A DNA stretch of 64,000 nucleotides, from the NCBI GenBank assembly GCA_018896875.1, contig JAHILT010000006.1, positions 12,605 to 76,604 on the forward strand. The letters are read 5' to 3'. The notes beneath the pieces were generated by a model. It was not told the DNA's origin and made no database searches. It saw only the letters and a list, made by a program, of their open reading frames with translations. This document shows positions 1-50,880 of the stretch, piece by piece; positions within the stretch are counted from its first letter, which is position 1; each line of letters opens with the position of its first letter. Origin of the DNA: Patescibacteria group bacterium. GTDB lineage: Bacteria > Patescibacteriota > Minisyncoccia > UBA6257 > 02-FULL-45-10c. The position numbers and the translations under genes are program-made.

Positions 1-80
1 AAGTCTAAAGATAAGTATGAAAAAAAAGAGTATTTTGGTTTTAGTTTTGTGCCTCTTGTTAAAAATGTAATAAATAGTAG

Positions 81-142
81 TTAGCGACTAGAGAATTAGT
101 AATTAGTGAAAACTTTCTCTTATCTAATGGCTAGTGGCTAAT
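81..142. repeat. Inverted pair of a dispersed 11-nt motif (TTAGCGACTAG at 81-91, CTAGTGGCTAA at 131-141) around an AT-rich spacer
   Basis: Read directly. The same motif recurs at 2755-2777, 29901-29925, 29962-29995 and 47762-47772, always intergenic. Confidence 0.8.
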
Positions 143-3339: not shown

Positions 3340-3771
3340 ATGTTCATCGGAGAATACAAACATAATTTAGATTCAAAAGGTAGAATTGCTCTTCCTGTAA
3401 AATTTCGTCAAGAGATAGGAAGTAGCGTGATTATTACCAAAGGATTAGATCGCTGTCTTTTTGCTTTTACTTCTAAGGACTGGGAAATATTAGCTCAAAA
3501 ACTTGTTAAATTACCATTAGTTCAGTCTAACTCTCGTGCCTTTGTTCGTTTGATGGTGGCAGGAGCTATGTCCGTAGAACCCGATAAACAAGGGAGGATT
3601 TTAATTCCTGATTATTTAAGACAATATGCTGATTTTAAAAAAGAAGTAGTAGTAGCTGGAGTTTATAATCGTATTGAAATCTGGAATAACGATACATGGA
3701 ATGATTATAAGTCAAAAACCGAGGCCTCTTCTGATGAAATAGCTGAAAAGCTAGGAGAGCTCGGTATTTAA
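3340..3771 (+). CDS. mraZ: Transcriptional regulator MraZ
   Basis: MFIGEYKHNLDSKGRIALP N-terminus and a duplicated SpoVT/AbrB-like half (DKQGRILIP). First gene of the dcw-type cluster. Confidence 0.95.
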   Translation: MFIGEYKHNLDSKGRIALPVKFRQEIGSSVIITKGLDRCLFAFTSKDWEILAQKLVKLPLVQSNSRAFVRLMVAGAMSVEPDKQGRILIPDYLRQYADFKKEVVVAGVYNRIEIWNNDTWNDYKSKTEASSDEIAEKLGELGI

Positions 3772-6766: not shown

Positions 6767-6900
6767 TCCCACACATAATAAAAACTAATAAAATAAATAA
6801 ATTCTTAGATATTACAAAAATCAATGAATAAGTCGCAAAAAAATAATTTAACAACATTGACCATGAGAACTTTGCTTTTAAGTCTTTGTTATGTGTGGGA
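6767..6900 (+). mobile_element. MITE-like inverted-repeat element, copy A
   Basis: The 19-nt terminal inverted repeats TCCCACACATAATAAAAAC (6767-6785) and GTCTTTGTTATGTGTGGGA (6882-6900) pair at 17/19 positions. Full-length homology to copies at 35637-35766 and 49278-49408. Confidence 0.85.
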
Positions 6901-9769: not shown

Positions 9770-10081
9770 ATGAAAATTGCAGTTATAGAAACAGGAGGAA
9801 AACAATATAAGATTATTGTTGGACAAAAACTTAAAGTAGAGAAACTAGACCAAGAGATTGGCACAGAGTTTGTTTTTGATAAGGTTCTATTATTGTCTGA
9901 AGATGATAAGGTTGAAGTTGGGTGTCCTTATTTAAAGAATACCAAGGTTAAGGTAATGATAATAAAAAACAAAAAAGATACTAAAAAAATTGTTTTTAAA
10001 TATCATGCCAAGAGTAGATATAGAAAGAAAAAAGGACATAGACAACAAATTACAGAAGTAGAAATATTAGATATTAAATAA
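9770..10081 (+). CDS. rplU: 50S ribosomal protein L21
   Basis: MKIAVIETGGKQYKI...HRQ signature. Confidence 0.9.
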   Translation: MKIAVIETGGKQYKIIVGQKLKVEKLDQEIGTEFVFDKVLLLSEDDKVEVGCPYLKNTKVKVMIIKNKKDTKKIVFKYHAKSRYRKKKGHRQQITEVEILDIK

Positions 10082-21269: not shown

Positions 21270-21316
21270 GGAGCAATTTCCAACGGCTCATATATTGAGC
21301 CGTTGGAAATTGCTCC
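21270..21316. repeat. Perfect 21-bp-stem hairpin (REP-like), copy 1
   Basis: GGAGCAATTTCCAACGGCTCA-TATAT-TGAGCCGTTGGAAATTGCTCC. The core recurs at 35558-35592. Confidence 0.9.
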
Positions 21317-29900: not shown

Positions 29901-29995
29901 TTAGCCACTAGGAGTTAGCCACTAGTGATTAATATTAAAAAATAAAAGGTTATTTTGGATTCGACTAGTCGCTAGTGGCTAGTCGCTAATCACTA
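29901..29995. repeat. Cluster of five CTAGT[C/G]GCTAA / TTAGCCACTAG motifs (two in one orientation, three in the other) around an AT-rich spacer
   Basis: TTAGCCACTAG at 29901 and 29915. CGACTAGTCGCTAGTGGCTAGTCGCTAATCACTA at 29962-29995. Confidence 0.9.
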
Positions 29996-35557: not shown

Positions 35558-35592
35558 ATTTCCAACGGCTCATATATTGAGCCGTTAGGAAT
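35558..35592. repeat. REP-like hairpin, copy 2
   Basis: ATTTCCAACGGCTCA-TATAT-TGAGCCGTTAGGAAT. One bulged A relative to the copy at 21270-21316. Confidence 0.85.
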
Positions 35593-35636
35593 TTTAATAA
35601 AATCTTGATTATTTGGTATAATAAGCATGGAATGAA

Positions 35637-35766
35637 TCCCCCACATAATTAAGACTGATAAAGTATAAATACTAGATGATGTAAAATTAATGAGTAAGTC
35701 GTAAAAAAATAATTTAATGATATTGATTATGAAAGTTTCACTTTCTGGTCTTTGTTATGTGGGGGA
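35637..35766 (+). mobile_element. MITE-like inverted-repeat element, copy B
   Basis: TCCCCCACATAATTAAGAC ... GTCTTTGTTATGTGGGGGA. Flanked by ATGAA on both sides (35632-35636 and 35766-35770). Confidence 0.85.
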
Positions 35767-37049
35767 TGAAAATAAAAAATTTTAAAAAATTAGCGACATC
35801 TAAAGATAGAAAAAAAGTGCTTGAAATTATTGAGAGCGGCTTAAATGCTATTGATACAAGAAAGGCAGTTTTGAATTCTATCAGAATTAAAAATGAAAAA
35901 TTATTAGTAAATAATCATTCTTTTTCTTTAAAAAATGCCAAGAAGATTTTAATTATTGGAATCGGAAAATGTTCTTTAGAAGCAGGTTCGGCTATGGAAA
36001 AGATTTTAGGAAAAAGATTGACTGGCGGAATTGTATTGGATGTGCATGAAGGAAAATTAAAAAAATTAAAAACTTTTACAGGCGATCATCCTTTGATGTC
36101 TCCTCGTAATGTGGATGCTACAAAGAAAATTATTAAATCTCTTTTTGGTCTTACCGAACAAGATTTAGTTATTTTTATAATTTCTGGCGGTGGCTCAGCG
36201 TTACTTTGCCAGCCAAAAGGTTTTACGTGTTTTGAAGAATCAGCAGTGGTTGAAGCTTTAATGCATTCTGGGGCAGATATTTACGAAGTGAATACAGTTA
36301 GAAAACATTTGTCTTTAGCCCGTGGCGGATTTTTGGCTAAGTACGCTTATCCAGCTCGTGTTGTTTCTTTGATTTTTTCTGACGTAGTAGGGGATAATCT
36401 TGAATTTATAGCTTCTGGTCCGACTATTAAAGACACCACTACTATAGAACAAGCTATGGACGTTCTTAAAAAATACAATATTTATGAAAAATGTAATTTT
36501 CCACCATTGAATCTTGTTGAAACTCCAAAAGATGATAAATATTTTGAACAAAACAGAAATGTTTTATTCGTTTCTAGCCAGACTGCTCTTGAAGCTATGG
36601 CAGAAAAATCTAGGGAATTAGGTTATTTACCTAAAATTCGTAAAAATGATTTAACAGGCGAAGCCAAAGAGGTTGCTAAAGAAATTATTGAGGAATTGTC
36701 CCAAGAAAACTCAGGAACTGTCTTATTATATGGAGGAGAAACAACTGTAAAAATCACAGGGAAGGGCAAAGGAGGAAGAAATCAAGAAATGTCTCTTTCT
36801 AGTTTGAGGTTTATAAAAGATAATCAAATCCTAGTTTCTTTTGCGTCAGATGGACGAGACAATTCTGATAATGCTGGCGGTATTTGTGATATAATTACTA
36901 AGAAAAAAGCTTTAAAGAAAAATCTAAATATAGAAAAGTATTTAAAAAATAACGATTCATATAATTTCTTTAAAGAAATTGGCGATTTTTTAAACACAGG
37001 AGATACTGGTTCTAATGTGGCAGACATTATAATCGCGATTAATAATTAA
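35766..37049 (+). CDS. Glycerate kinase (DUF4147/MOFRL-type glycerate 2-kinase)
   Basis: Typical MOFRL-family pattern: IIGIGKCS, ISGGGSALL and GGETTV...GKGGRNQE. The start is moved to the ATG at 35766, outside the repeat. Confidence 0.75.
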   Translation: MKIKNFKKLATSKDRKKVLEIIESGLNAIDTRKAVLNSIRIKNEKLLVNNHSFSLKNAKKILIIGIGKCSLEAGSAMEKILGKRLTGGIVLDVHEGKLKKLKTFTGDHPLMSPRNVDATKKIIKSLFGLTEQDLVIFIISGGGSALLCQPKGFTCFEESAVVEALMHSGADIYEVNTVRKHLSLARGGFLAKYAYPARVVSLIFSDVVGDNLEFIASGPTIKDTTTIEQAMDVLKKYNIYEKCNFPPLNLVETPKDDKYFEQNRNVLFVSSQTALEAMAEKSRELGYLPKIRKNDLTGEAKEVAKEIIEELSQENSGTVLLYGGETTVKITGKGKGGRNQEMSLSSLRFIKDNQILVSFASDGRDNSDNAGGICDIITKKKALKKNLNIEKYLKNNDSYNFFKEIGDFLNTGDTGSNVADIIIAINN

Positions 37050-48659: not shown

Positions 48660-49289
48660 ATGAAAAAAGGAAAATTTATTGTATTAGATGGAATAGATGG
48701 CTGTGGCAAAGGAACGATTCTTAAAAAAATCGCGTCTTATTTAGTTAATAAAAATAAAATGAGCCATGTCTTATTAACTCGTGAGCCATATATCTCTGAA
48801 CATAATGCTGAAATTCGAAGAATGATGAAAGAGAATGCTAATCCTTATGATAATGCTGAAATTTTCGCTGATCTTTTTGTAAAAGATAGAAAAGTTCATG
48901 CCGATTGGATTCAAAAAGAATTAGTAGCTGGGCATCACGTAGTTTGTGATAGATATAAATATTCGACATTAGCATATCAGCAAACACAAGGTATTTCTTT
49001 GATAAAACTTATAGAAATGCATAAAGGAGTTTTAATTCCAGATCTTGCGATAATTGTGGATGTGCCTGTGGAAGAAGCAATTCGTCGCGCCAATAAGGAC
49101 AAGAATAGAAATTTTAAGGAGGTTTTTGAAAAACAAGAATTTCAGGAAAAATTAAGAACGAATTATCTTGCTTTTCCCAAGGCTTTTCCGAAAGAAAATA
49201 TAGTTGTTTTAACGGGAGTTAGTTCTGATATAATTTTTGAAAAATCTAAAATTGAAATTGATAAAATTTTAAACGAGTCCCACACATAA
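48660..49289 (+). CDS. tmk: Thymidylate kinase
   Basis: P-loop DGIDGCGKGT, DRYKYST, LID-like RR motif. The last 4 codons and the stop lie inside MITE copy C. Confidence 0.9.
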   Translation: MKKGKFIVLDGIDGCGKGTILKKIASYLVNKNKMSHVLLTREPYISEHNAEIRRMMKENANPYDNAEIFADLFVKDRKVHADWIQKELVAGHHVVCDRYKYSTLAYQQTQGISLIKLIEMHKGVLIPDLAIIVDVPVEEAIRRANKDKNRNFKEVFEKQEFQEKLRTNYLAFPKAFPKENIVVLTGVSSDIIFEKSKIEIDKILNESHT

Positions 49290-49408
49290 CAAAAACTGAT
49301 AAAATATAATATTTTAAATATCATAAAAACTGATGAATAATTCGCGAGAAAATAATTAACAACATTAATTACAAAAGCCTTACTTTTGGGTTTTTGTTAT
49401 GTGGGGGA
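49278..49408 (+). mobile_element. MITE-like inverted-repeat element, copy C
   Basis: TCCCACACATAACAAAAAC ... GTTTTTGTTATGTGGGGGA (18/19 paired). Flanks are ACGAG and ATGAG. Confidence 0.85.
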
Positions 49409-50880
49409 TGAGTAAATATTTACCAACAATAGGATTAGAGGTTCACGCTGAGCTTTGTACTAAAACAAAGATGTTTTGTGATTGCCCAAATAATCCTAAT
49501 GAAAAAAGAGCCAATATTAATGTTTGTCCAATTTGCCTAGGCCACCCCGGGGCTTTGCCAGTTATAAATAGAAAAGCTATTGAGATGGTGATTAAAATTG
49601 GATTTGCCGTAAAAGGGGAGATTAATGATAATTTTAAATTTGACAGAAAAAATTATTTTTATCCCGACCTTCCTAAGGGTTATCAGATTTCACAAAGCGA
49701 TTTACCAATAGTAAAAGGAGGCATTGTAGATATTTCTAGTTACCTAGGATATGACAGAATAATAAAGGTTAATAGGGTTCATTTAGAAGAAGATGCGGGG
49801 AAATTAGTTCATAGCGTTGATAAAGAAGGAAAAGATATCTCATTGGTTAATTTTAATAGAGGAGGGCTTCCTTTAGTGGAAATGGTTTCTGAACCAGATA
49901 TTCATAGCGCTGAAGAAGCTGTGGCTTATGCAAAAGAATTGCAATTAATTTTACGTTATTTAGGGGCTTCTACTGCTGATTTAGAAAACGGACAAATGAG
50001 AGCAGACGTAAATATATCTATTAGTGATAACGATAATCTTGGCACTAAGGTTGAGATTAAGAATTTAAATTCTTTCAATTCTATTGGAAACTCAATTAAT
50101 TATGAGATAAAGAGACAGGCAGAAATTTTGTCTAACGATAAAAATACAAAAATCATTCACGAAACTCGTGGCTGGGACGACATAAAACAAAAAACTTTTT
50201 CTCAACGATCCAAAGAAGAGGCTCAAGATTATCGTTATTTTCCAGAACCAGATTTGCCACCTTTAACTAAAGATGGATTTGATATTGAAGGACTTTCTAA
50301 AAGTATTCCAGAGCTTCCTATAGAAAAAAGAGCACGATTTAATAAGCAATACGATTTATCCCCGGATCAAATAAGTATATTAATTGAAGACAAGAAAATG
50401 TCTGACTATTTTGAGCAGTCTCTTTCAGAGTTAGAGGCGGACAATCAAAAAAAAGCTAATCTAGAAAAGATAAAATTAATTTTTAATTATTTATCTAGTG
50501 ATTTGAGAGGATTATTAATTATTAAAGGAGTCGGGTTTGATGAATGTAAAATTACTCCTGAGAATTTTGCCGATCTTATAGATATGATAATAAAAAAAGA
50601 AATTACTAGTCGGGTTGCAAAAGATTTATTGGTTAAGATATTAGAAACAGGCTCTGATCCTAGAGATATAGTTAGTCAAGAAGGGTTGGGGCAAATTTCT
50701 GATGAAGCAGGGTTGAAAGATTTGGTTATAAAAATAATCGAAGAAAATCCAAAGGCAGTAGATGATTATAGAAAAGGCAAAATACAGGTTGTTATGTTTT
50801 TAATAGGAAAGACCATGGCTATTTTAAAGGGTCGTGGAAATCCAGATATTTTGAAAAAATTATTTAAAGAAAATATTTAA
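49408..50880 (+). CDS. gatB: Asp/Glu-tRNA amidotransferase subunit B
   Basis: IGLEVHAEL, CPICLGHPGALP, NRGGLPLVE, and a C-terminal YqeY-like domain. The start is moved to the ATG at 49408, outside the repeat. Confidence 0.92.
   Translation: MSKYLPTIGLEVHAELCTKTKMFCDCPNNPNEKRANINVCPICLGHPGALPVINRKAIEMVIKIGFAVKGEINDNFKFDRKNYFYPDLPKGYQISQSDLPIVKGGIVDISSYLGYDRIIKVNRVHLEEDAGKLVHSVDKEGKDISLVNFNRGGLPLVEMVSEPDIHSAEEAVAYAKELQLILRYLGASTADLENGQMRADVNISISDNDNLGTKVEIKNLNSFNSIGNSINYEIKRQAEILSNDKNTKIIHETRGWDDIKQKTFSQRSKEEAQDYRYFPEPDLPPLTKDGFDIEGLSKSIPELPIEKRARFNKQYDLSPDQISILIEDKKMSDYFEQSLSELEADNQKKANLEKIKLIFNYLSSDLRGLLIIKGVGFDECKITPENFADLIDMIIKKEITSRVAKDLLVKILETGSDPRDIVSQEGLGQISDEAGLKDLVIKIIEENPKAVDDYRKGKIQVVMFLIGKTMAILKGRGNPDILKKLFKENI

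What the first reader, a model, noticed from the sequence alone, without database searches (positions are those of the whole stretch)
49278..49408. Copy C split a formerly overlapping tmk/gatB junction and now supplies the tmk stop codon
tmk currently ends ...AAC GAG TCC CAC ACA TAA. Its last four codons and the stop therefore come from the left terminal repeat.

Deleting the element plus one flanking pentamer restores ...TTA AA[T] GAG TAA ATA.... In that sequence tmk ends L-N-E-stop, and gatB starts at ATGAGTAAA. This is an 8-nt overlap typical of compact genomes.

The left pentamer is now ACGAG. Its T>C change destroys the duplicate ATG while remaining synonymous (AAT>AAC, Asn) in tmk. This is internally consistent evidence for a real insertion event followed by selection.
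Basis: partly seen in the sequence, partly recalled or inferred. Interest (0 to 1): 0.65.

Follow-up and report, generated by a model that had tools for sequence, protein, structure and literature searches.

The report
Start-codon-targeting mini mobile element
The 130-base hairpin between the tmk and gatB genes is a real insertion of a gene-less copy of a tiny, apparently undescribed mobile element of Patescibacteria that lands exactly on start codons, and whose full-length relatives encode only a ~90-residue GIY-YIG nuclease.

Summary
Copy C (49278-49407) has 18-nt terminal inverted repeats flanked by ACGAG/ATGAG. The last three tmk codons and its TAA stop lie in the left repeat, and gatB starts right after the right repeat. 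Copy B also has an empty site in that relative, with a single ATGAA.

The element belongs to a large Patescibacteria family, with 95 distinct copies recovered:
- 57 copies have a perfect 5-bp duplication reading ATGNN.
- 51 of those 57 open a host ORF, against about 43% expected from where ATGAA occurs in the window.
- The arms of the terminal repeats covary.

Versions of about 290 bp, with the same ends and the same duplication, encode only an 85-93 aa Slx1/UPF0213-type GIY-YIG nuclease. This ORF often starts at the captured host ATG (MNPTHN...).

The window copies have no ORF. That the nuclease mobilises them is inferred, not shown. I found no published description of this family.

The parts
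48660..49289 (+). tmk (dTMP kinase) CDS; its last three codons and stop now lie in the element
   Evidence: ORF list; Pfam PF02223 homologues; C-terminal alignment
49273..49277 (+). Left copy of the 5-bp target-site duplication, now ACGAG (ancestrally ATGAG)
   Evidence: Sequence; relative has AAT at this codon; family-wide ATGNN duplication
49278..49407 (+). Copy C: 130-nt ORF-less element
   Evidence: Absent at the orthologous site in L001/L002; fold -33.1 kcal/mol, z -6.4; no Rfam match
49278..49289 (+). TCC CAC ACA TAA: the S-H-T tail and stop codon of Tmk, supplied by the left end of the element
   Evidence: Sequence. The invariant CACATAA in all 62 distinct arm pairs puts a TAA in this frame
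49279..49296 (+). Left terminal inverted repeat CCCACACATAACAAAAAC
   Evidence: arm covariation across the family
49372..49388 (+). Small hairpin just inside the right repeat (CAAAAG-CCTTA-CTTTTG); its position fixes the element's polarity
   Evidence: Fold. Family-wide: right side -3.8 versus -2.3 kcal/mol shuffled, p = 3.5e-7; none on the left side
49390..49407 (+). Right terminal inverted repeat GTTTTTGTTATGTGGGGG
49399..49401 (+). ATG inside the right repeat, in frame with gatB; causes the spurious MWGM N-terminal extension
   Evidence: ORF list; orthologues lack the extension
49408..49412 (+). Right copy of the target-site duplication, ATGAG; this is the gatB start codon
49408..50880 (+). 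gatB CDS (true start)
   Evidence: Orthologous N-termini MSKYLPTIGLE; Pfam GatB_N/GatB_Yqey in relatives
35632..35770 (+). Copy B (element 35637-35765) with a perfect ATGAA/ATGAA duplication, in front of the glycerate kinase gene; TGGTATAAT lies 9 nt upstream of the left ATGAA
   Evidence: Empty site with a single ATGAA in relative L166
6762..6904 (+). Copy A (element 6767-6899) flanked by ATAAA/ATGAA, between the gene for a penicillin-binding/FtsI-like protein and the murF-like start
   Evidence: Empty site not checked

Best explanation
**What it is.** Copy C is an ORF-less (MITE-like) member of a family of very small mobile elements of Patescibacteria. These elements integrate at start codons and duplicate 5 bp that read ATGNN.

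**What happened here.** In this genome's ancestor, tmk and gatB overlapped by 8 nt (ATGAGTAA). The element went in at ATGAG.
- The right copy of the duplication rebuilt the gatB start.
- The left copy stayed inside tmk.
- tmk now reads three extra codons (S-H-T) into the left repeat and stops at the TAA that every family member carries in that frame.

**Full-length relatives.** Members of about 290 bp have the same ends and the same duplication. They encode one protein, an 85-93 aa stand-alone GIY-YIG nuclease of the Slx1/UPF0213 type.
- Its ORF often begins at the left, captured host ATG (ATG AAT CCC ACA CAT AAC = MNPTHN).
- It ends in the right repeat, 12-14 nt before the host ATG.
- The element therefore borrows the host's promoter and start codon and hands translation on to the host gene.

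**Shown:** the insertion, the duplication, the start-codon association, the fixed polarity, the arm covariation and the GIY-YIG-encoding relatives.

**Inferred:**
1. The GIY-YIG nuclease mobilises both full-length and ORF-less copies, probably acting on the hairpin or cruciform formed by the repeats and making a 5-nt staggered cut at the target.
2. In the mRNA, the 18-bp stem hides the region just upstream of the gatB AUG. A ribosome finishing tmk inside the left arm melts the stem. gatB translation would then stay coupled to tmk despite 118 nt of new spacer.
For: **Insertion and duplication**
- Empty site for C in two samples; gapless 139/146 alignment after removing the element plus 5 nt.
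- Empty site for B with a single ATGAA.

**Family**
- 25 genome loci and 120 metagenome loci were recovered, giving 95 distinct copies. 83 have ATG right after the element.
- 57 have a perfect ATGNN duplication: ATGAA 48, ATGAG 5, ATGGA 3, ATGCT 1.
- 51 of those 57 open an ORF of at least 60 aa or run off the contig. About 43% is expected from the ATGAA census of the window; binomial p = 2e-13.

**Structure**
- Arm covariation: 98.6% of cells paired, 8 of 18 pairs with changes on both sides, 146 compensatory cells against 42.9 +/- 4.7 in shuffles, 0/500.
- Polarity: a hairpin just inside the repeat occurs only on the gene-proximal side.

**Full-length elements**
- Eight independent insertions at different host genes, all with an ATGNN duplication: L022, L126, L127, L155, L164, L168, L169, L174.
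- Pfam GIY-YIG, E = 1.5e-16. Nearest solved structures are UPF0213 1zg2 and SLX1 6seh.
- N-termini MNPTHN... are encoded by the duplication plus the left repeat.
- 4,140 cluster representatives at E <= 1e-10.
Against: - There is no GIY-YIG ORF in the 64-kb window.
- The interior of copies A-C shows no significant similarity to the ORF (z <= 2). The link to the full-length elements therefore rests on the shared outer ~13 nt of each end, the duplication rule and the polarity.
- No full-length element with the window's inner-arm variant (AAAAAC/AAAGAC) was recovered.
- As far as I know, no GIY-YIG enzyme has been shown to act as a transposase or to make 5-nt staggered cuts.
- Eight ORF-less copies have the upstream gene's TAA directly against the element and no duplication. 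The simple model does not explain these.
- The arm covariation could partly reflect subfamilies copied from different master elements.
- The coupling-by-unmasking step rests on geometry only. There are no expression data.
Confidence: 0.8

Rival explanations
1. An ordinary MITE moved by a conventional (DDE-type) transposase encoded elsewhere. On this reading the GIY-YIG ORF in the 290-bp versions is cargo, or a separate invader of the same element.
For: Terminal inverted repeats plus a fixed 5-bp duplication are the classic signature of DDE transposition. The window has no nuclease gene. The interiors of A-C are not recognisably derived from the ORF.
Against: - No transposase flanked by these repeats appeared in about 170 loci.
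- The ORF's start and stop sit in the duplication and the repeats, so it is built into the ends.
- Symmetric repeats give a DDE enzyme no obvious way to fix the element's orientation relative to an asymmetric ATGNN target, yet polarity is fixed.
- The arms covary rather than being conserved in sequence.
Confidence: 0.1
2. The hairpin is now mainly a host-serving regulatory RNA. It could be a translational coupling or masking device, or an RNase III site, kept at gene starts by selection. Mobility would be only how it arrived.
For: - The stem is maintained by compensatory change.
- The element abuts the start codon in 83 of 95 copies.
- Either a short ORF starting at the left ATG or the end of an upstream gene usually runs into the left arm. 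An upstream stop lies at the left end in 11 of 21 copies that lack a left ATG, against 11 of 52 that keep it, p = 0.012.
- An RNase III gene lies in the syntenic region of the relative.
Against: - Close relatives do without it at sites B and C.
- Host genes of unrelated function carry it.
- The internal sequence is poorly conserved.
- No Rfam family matches.
- A stem is also what a nuclease acting on DNA hairpins would select for.
Confidence: 0.08
3. The 130 nt are an old intergenic spacer that the relative lost by deletion, and the flanking pentamers match by chance.
For: Only one close relative lineage was available for site C. More distant relatives do have spacers between tmk and gatB.
Against: - Those spacers are unrelated in sequence (terminator plus promoter).
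- The same element, with the same kind of duplication, sits at dozens of unrelated genes.
- Site B shows the same presence/absence pattern with a perfect ATGAA duplication.
Confidence: 0.02

Closest known systems
Bacterial MITEs co-transcribed with neighbouring genes, e.g. Neisseria Correia elements (own knowledge; review PMC10969869 was listed but not read)
   Same: Size of 100-150 bp, terminal inverted repeats, target duplication, many copies, no ORF, position next to genes, and a long hairpin in the transcript.
   Different: - Correia elements duplicate TA and are not tied to start codons or to one orientation.
- Here the duplication is ATGNN at real start codons.
- Polarity is fixed.
- The arms covary.
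- The ORF-bearing relatives encode a GIY-YIG nuclease, not a DDE transposase.
Free-standing GIY-YIG homing endonuclease genes, e.g. phage T4 seg genes and I-TevI relatives (own knowledge; background in PMC1564403)
   Same: A selfish gene whose only product is a GIY-YIG nuclease, placed between host genes so as to do little damage.
   Different: - Homing endonucleases carry a DNA-binding domain, have no terminal repeats or duplication, and spread to the same locus by break repair.
- These proteins are the bare catalytic domain (85-93 aa).
- The element has repeats and a duplication, and occupies many unrelated loci.
Prokaryotic stand-alone Slx1/UPF0213 (YhbQ-type) GIY-YIG proteins (PMC1564403; PDB 1zg2, 1ywl, 6seh)
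   Same: Best sequence matches among solved structures. [quoted passage not shown] Eukaryotic Slx1 cuts branched and hairpin DNA (own knowledge).
   Different: Not described as mobile, nor as flanked by inverted repeats or duplications. Identity to them is low (E about 1e-4).
GIY-YIG-encoding insertions in CPR rRNA genes (Tsurumaki et al. 2024, PMC11270868)
   Same: Same bacterial group. [quoted passage not shown]
   Different: Those sit in rRNA genes. No repeats, duplication or start-codon rule is reported there, and whether they are the same family was not tested here.
IS200/IS605-derived palindrome-associated elements and REP/REPIN elements (own knowledge)
   Same: Small, hairpin-forming, orientation-specific insertion next to a short motif.
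   Different: Those make no target duplication and are moved by HUH (Y1) transposases. Here the flanking 5 bp vary together on both sides (ATGAA, ATGAG, ATGGA, ATGCT), so this is a true duplication.

Membership tests
MITE (miniature inverted-repeat transposable element) | Short element (well under 500 bp) with no coding capacity | tested here: met
   129-133 nt. No significant tblastn match of 93 GIY-YIG proteins to the window. Only short junk ORFs.
MITE (miniature inverted-repeat transposable element) | Terminal inverted repeats | tested here: met
   18-nt arms, 5 matches against 0.03 expected; 98.6% paired across 62 distinct arm pairs.
MITE (miniature inverted-repeat transposable element) | Target-site duplication, with empty sites in relatives | tested here: met
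   Empty sites for C and B; 57 of 95 copies with a perfect 5-bp duplication.
MITE (miniature inverted-repeat transposable element) | Multiple copies, within and between genomes | tested here: met
   3 copies in the window; at least 10 in MAG JAUSKP01 and 6 in JAUYKI01; 95 distinct overall.
MITE (miniature inverted-repeat transposable element) | Mobilised in trans by the enzyme of an autonomous element that shares its ends | tested here: inconclusive
   The ~290-bp GIY-YIG elements share the outer ~13 nt of each end, the duplication and the polarity. None has the window's inner-arm variant, none is in the window, and no activity data exist.
Homing endonuclease gene (free-standing, GIY-YIG class) | Encodes a GIY-YIG nuclease | tested here: not met
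   Not met for copy C. Met only by full-length relatives elsewhere.
Homing endonuclease gene (free-standing, GIY-YIG class) | Spreads to the cognate allele by break repair, leaving no repeats or duplication | tested here: not met
   Copies sit at dozens of unrelated genes with repeats and a 5-bp duplication.
IS200/IS605-type palindrome-associated element | Inserts next to a fixed short motif without duplicating the target | tested here: not met
   The flanking pentamers vary together on both sides (ATGAA, ATGAG, ATGGA, ATGCT).
Curated structured RNA family (Rfam) | Match to a covariance model at its gathering score | tested here: not met
   Only three tRNAs in the window.
Correia-type element | TA target duplication | tested here: not met
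   The duplication is a 5-bp ATGNN.
Correia-type element | RNase III processing of the transcribed hairpin | not testable with these tools
   Needs RNA data. An RNase III gene is present in the syntenic region of the relative.

The most novel reading that the evidence does not exclude
These elements may be a previously unrecognised class of prokaryotic transposon with the following properties.
- Its only protein is a ~90-residue Slx1/UPF0213-type GIY-YIG nuclease.
- It recognises its own ends as a hairpin or cruciform rather than as a sequence.
- It integrates specifically at start codons with a 5-bp ATGNN duplication.
- It expresses itself from the captured host promoter and start codon.
- It leaves ORF-less derivatives whose terminal stem keeps the downstream gene translated.

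At about 290 bp it would be among the smallest autonomous mobile elements known.
Probability: 0.45. Interest if true: 0.9.

Novelty: new variant of a known kind. Interest (0 to 1): 0.78.

Why it matters
**For this window.** The result explains three odd hairpins. It corrects three gene starts: gatB, glycerate kinase and the murF-like gene each carry a spurious MWGM or MCGM extension. It also shows how an 8-nt overlapping gene pair survived being split.

**More broadly.** It points to a widespread family in Patescibacteria, with 4,140 nuclease cluster representatives at E <= 1e-10, that combines features usually kept apart:
- a homing-type GIY-YIG nuclease;
- transposon-type repeats and a target duplication;
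- a target that is the start codon itself.

If the nuclease is the mobility enzyme, this would add an enzyme class to prokaryotic transposition. It would also offer a very small, start-codon-directed insertion system.

Most genes in this genome lack Shine-Dalgarno motifs, so the family also bears on how such genomes tolerate structured leaders.

Finally, it is a practical annotation issue. Gene callers start host genes at the ATG inside the repeat, and they annotate the nuclease as an ordinary 'GIY-YIG nuclease family protein'.

Tried and rejected
**Analyses that led nowhere**
- Similarity between the interiors of A-C and the GIY-YIG ORF looked real by eye. It is not significant (z <= 2), so I do not claim the window copies are deletion derivatives on that basis.
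- Outward promoter or terminator in the element: only weak 9/12 promoter-like hits, 10 against 6.6 +/- 2.3 expected, and no terminator.
- Rfam: no family matches.
- Preference for genes with a -10 box close to the ATG: 33/73 targets against 17/54 window genes, p = 0.14. Not shown.
- Excision footprints (tandem ATGAAATGAA in the relative's empty site B and at L032): 4/57 against 1/57 control, p = 0.36. Not shown.
- Phage carriage: no exact-pattern hit in viral contigs.

**Ideas considered and set aside**
- An IS200/IS605-style model, in which the element carries its own copy of the target motif, is rejected because the flanks co-vary.
- Resemblance of CACATAAC/GTTATGTG to the integron attC core sites is only my own by-eye comparison with the consensus as I recall it (about 6 of 7 positions). 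It was not tested with a tool. The flanking genes are syntenic core genes, so I treat it as coincidence.
- The C-terminus GRAHV of the closest Tmk hit (P0002) is Illumina adapter sequence.

**Tool and literature notes**
- MAFFT placed the large gap badly. A gap-penalised global alignment of the excised sequence was used instead.
- Nine literature searches found no description of such elements.

Full report
**1. The observation**

The sequence is as described.
- tmk (48660-49289) ends TTA AAC GAG TCC CAC ACA TAA.
- From 49278 to 49407 lies a 130-nt element. Its arms are CCCACACATAACAAAAAC and GTTTTTGTTATGTGGGGG.
- It is flanked by ACGAG (49273-49277) and ATGAG (49408-49412).
- gatB begins ATGAGTAAA at 49408.

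The arm sequence occurs five times in the window against 0.03 expected. This defines three copies, all on the + strand and each ending right against the ATG of a gene:
- A: 6767-6899, before a murF-like gene;
- B: 35637-35765, before the glycerate kinase gene;
- C: this one.

The copies fold as long hairpins at -28 to -37 kcal/mol, z -4.8 to -6.4. No Rfam family matches.

Three codons plus the stop, not four, come from the element. The ORF finder's gatB start at 49399 is an in-frame ATG inside the right arm.

**2.

Tmk homologues place the window in the Patescibacteria.

The closest informative relative has Tmk 82% identical, on a 445-kb JGI contig and a second sample. It lacks the element. 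Its tmk ends AAT GTC TAA and overlaps gatB ATGTCTAAA by 8 nt. With the element and one pentamer removed, the window aligns to it without gaps, 139/146. No orthologue ends in ESHT. The insertion and the former overlap are therefore confirmed; only GAG versus GTC differs from the reconstruction.

Relatives at 75-80% identity have a different junction. Theirs is a 48-101-nt spacer with a terminator hairpin and TGATATAAT 8-15 nt before the ATG. The overlap is therefore specific to the window's immediate lineage.

One apparent close hit (P0002) ends in Illumina adapter.

Copy B gives a second, cleaner case. The same relative reads tggtataataagcatgaaATGAAaataaaa, where the window has ATGAA[element]ATGAA.

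**3. The family**

A pattern built on the arms was scanned across 185,579 species genomes. True matches were found only in Patescibacteria-type MAGs. These included at least 10 copies in JAUSKP01 and 6 in JAUYKI01, plus Saccharibacteria, Harrisonbacteria and Wolfebacteria.

After removing duplicates there are 95 distinct copies:
- 83 are followed directly by ATG.
- 57 have a perfect 5-bp duplication: ATGAA 48, ATGAG 5, ATGGA 3, ATGCT 1.
- Of those 57, 51 open an ORF of at least 60 aa or run off the contig. Three more look like short genes; one begins MKVRASVKK and looks like rpmJ.

The flanks change together on both sides, so this is a true target duplication whose first three bases are a start codon.

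In the window, ATGAA occurs 235 times: 12 at gene starts and 16 in intergenic DNA away from starts. Tolerated random insertion at ATGAA would therefore put about 43% of copies at starts. The observed 51/57 gives p = 2e-13. No wider target consensus is visible beyond A/T richness.

**4. Anatomy**

*Arms.* The outer arms are invariant (CCCNCACATAA / TTATGTGNGGG). The fourth position and the inner six positions vary but stay complementary. Across 62 distinct arm pairs:
- 98.6% of cells pair;
- 8 of 18 pairs show changes on both sides;
- there are 146 compensatory cells against 42.9 +/- 4.7 in shuffles (0/500);
- sliding the partner by one to three columns drops pairing to 34-61%;
- position 4 uses AU 23, GC 14, CG 12 and UA 7.

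Related copies inflate such counts. Even so, the number of distinct, perfectly matched arm variants argues that pairing, or identity of the two ends, is maintained.

*Polarity.* A small hairpin with varying stem sequence sits just inside the gene-proximal arm. It averages -3.8 kcal/mol against -2.3 shuffled, p = 3.5e-7. There is none on the other side. Orientation relative to the host gene is therefore fixed.

*Reading frames at the left end.* The frame of the ATG stays open. TGA closes the +1 frame when the duplication is ATGAN. The invariant CACATAA gives TAA in the +2 frame. The +2 frame TAA is what ends tmk here.

**5. Full-length relatives**

Three hits were about 290 bp long and contain an ORF. 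It is a GIY-YIG domain (Pfam E = 1.5e-16). Its nearest solved structures are UPF0213 BH0048 (E = 8.5e-5) and SLX1 (E = 2e-4).

A protein search returned 93 clusters of 50-106 aa (mostly 84-97 aa). Every cluster that carries an organism name is from a Patescibacteria lineage. A profile search found 4,140 cluster representatives at E <= 1e-10.

Many proteins begin MNPTHN or MSPTHN. That is ATG AAT CCC ACA CAT AAC: the left copy of the duplicated host start, one T, and the left arm. The stop codon lies in the right arm, 12-14 nt before the host ATG.

Eight independent full-length insertions all show ATGNN duplications: L022, L126, L127, L155, L164, L168, L169 and L174. Those with annotated neighbours lie upstream of tig (after nusA), pilM, a nucleotidyltransferase gene and an LPG-synthase-type gene.

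The element thus borrows the host's promoter and start codon, and returns a rebuilt start to the host.

**6. What links copy C to these, and what does not**

Shared features are the outer ~13 nt of each end, the duplication rule, the position at start codons and the polarity.

Not shared, or not shown:
- The window has no GIY-YIG ORF.
- The interiors of A-C are not significantly similar to the ORF.
- I recovered no full-length element with the window's inner-arm variant.

Mobilisation of the window copies by such a nuclease is therefore an inference.

**7. How it most likely works**

*DNA level (inferred).* A minimal Slx1-like nuclease acts on the hairpin or cruciform formed by the arms, which would explain the covariation. 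It makes cuts 5 nt apart at the target. I know of no GIY-YIG enzyme shown to do this.

Why true start codons are so strongly preferred is unexplained. Selection against insertions inside genes accounts for only part of it.

*RNA level at tmk/gatB (inferred from geometry).* The tmk stop lies 9-11 nt into the left arm. A terminating ribosome would cover and melt that arm, freeing the right arm and the adjacent gatB AUG. When closed, the stem brings the tmk stop close to the gatB start. This would preserve translational coupling across 118 nt.

Some observations are consistent with ribosomes normally entering the left arm:
- 52 of 73 ORF-less copies keep the left ATG, which opens a short ORF (MNPTHNKD...).
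- Among the 21 that lost it, 11 have an upstream gene ending at the left border. Among those that keep it, 11 of 52 do (p = 0.012).

Shine-Dalgarno-like motifs are rare both at targets (3/73) and in the window's genes (6/54).

**8. The selection claim**

The T>C change is derived, since the relative has AAT. However, it sits at one of only two positions in the pentamer that are synonymous in tmk, and most copies keep their upstream ATG. One synonymous transition is not evidence of selection.

**9. Comparison and novelty**

Copy C meets the structural definition of a MITE. It fails the tests for a homing endonuclease gene, an IS200/IS605-type element, a Correia element and any Rfam family (see the membership table).

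The family combines a homing-type nuclease with transposon-type ends and a start-codon target. Nine full-text searches found no description of it.

[quoted passage not shown] PMC1564403 describes stand-alone prokaryotic Slx1-like domains as the minimal GIY-YIG form.

I rate the family a new variant of a known kind. There is a substantial chance that it is a new class of transposon.

**10. Limits**

- All evidence is comparative sequence analysis.
- The patterns required exact outer arms, so divergent subfamilies are under-sampled. One example encodes MNPAP... N-termini.
- The empty site for copy A was not obtained.
- A minority of copies lack a duplication.

Noticed in passing
window 49399-49401, 35757-35759, 6891-6893: Each right arm contains an ATG in frame with the host start (ttATGtgggggATG). 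ORF callers therefore add MWGM or MCGM to GatB, glycerate kinase and the MurF-like protein. The database entry for the window's own glycerate kinase is 430 aa, against 427 aa for most close orthologues, including the closest.
   Followed up: yes
Proteins P0342, P0350, P0356, P0366, P0368, P0372: A related GIY-YIG subfamily occurs as in-frame N-terminal fusions of 236-288 aa. They continue into ...GAGFTLIE..., which I recognise as the type IV prepilin cleavage motif. The nuclease appears to sit where the pilin leader peptide would be, so prepilin peptidase might separate the two.
   Followed up: no
L027, L030, L049, L066, L081, L083, L132, L147: In eight ORF-less copies the left flank ends in the upstream gene's TAA stop, directly against the element, with no 5-bp duplication. 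The simple staggered-cut model does not explain them.
   Followed up: partly
L004 10620-10693; L006 10676-10762; L007 860-929; L008 2140-2248: In relatives the tmk-gatB spacer carries a terminator hairpin overlapping or following the tmk end, and a conserved TTTTTGATATAAT only 8-15 nt before the gatB ATG with no Shine-Dalgarno motif. This suggests leaderless or very short-leader gatB mRNAs in this clade.
   Followed up: partly
window, all 54 long ORFs: Only 6 of 54 genes have a GGAG/GAGG/AGGA motif 4-16 nt upstream. 17 of 54 have TAnnnT ending 4-10 nt before the ATG. Translation initiation here seems largely independent of Shine-Dalgarno pairing.
   Followed up: partly
window 21276-21311 and 35558-35593; L166 about 9862-9896: A 36-nt palindrome (ATTTCCAACGGCTCATATATTGAGCCGTTGGAAATT) occurs twice in the window at 94% identity. 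One copy lies just upstream of copy B, and a similar sequence is at the same place in the relative. Its nature is unknown.
   Followed up: no
window 75-113, 2746-2788, 29909-29992: A repeated TAGTTAGCCACTAGCGACTAG-like motif is present in direct and inverted orientation (families D3 and I2).
   Followed up: no
L166 9996-10005; L032 upstream of the copy at 3552: Tandem ATGAAATGAA occurs at the relative's empty site B and next to one other copy. This could be an excision footprint, but enrichment is not significant (4/57 against 1/57, p = 0.36).
   Followed up: yes
L003 1466-1552: The contig carrying the closest Tmk hit (P0002) ends in Illumina adapter (GATCGGAAGAGCACACGTCTGAACTCCAGTCAC). The protein's C-terminus GRAHV is an assembly artefact.
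   Followed up: yes
Proteins P0338, P0348, P0360: Other GIY-YIG subfamilies start MNPAP... This implies elements with a different left arm (TCCCGCACC...) that the arm-based DNA patterns used here could not find.
   Followed up: no
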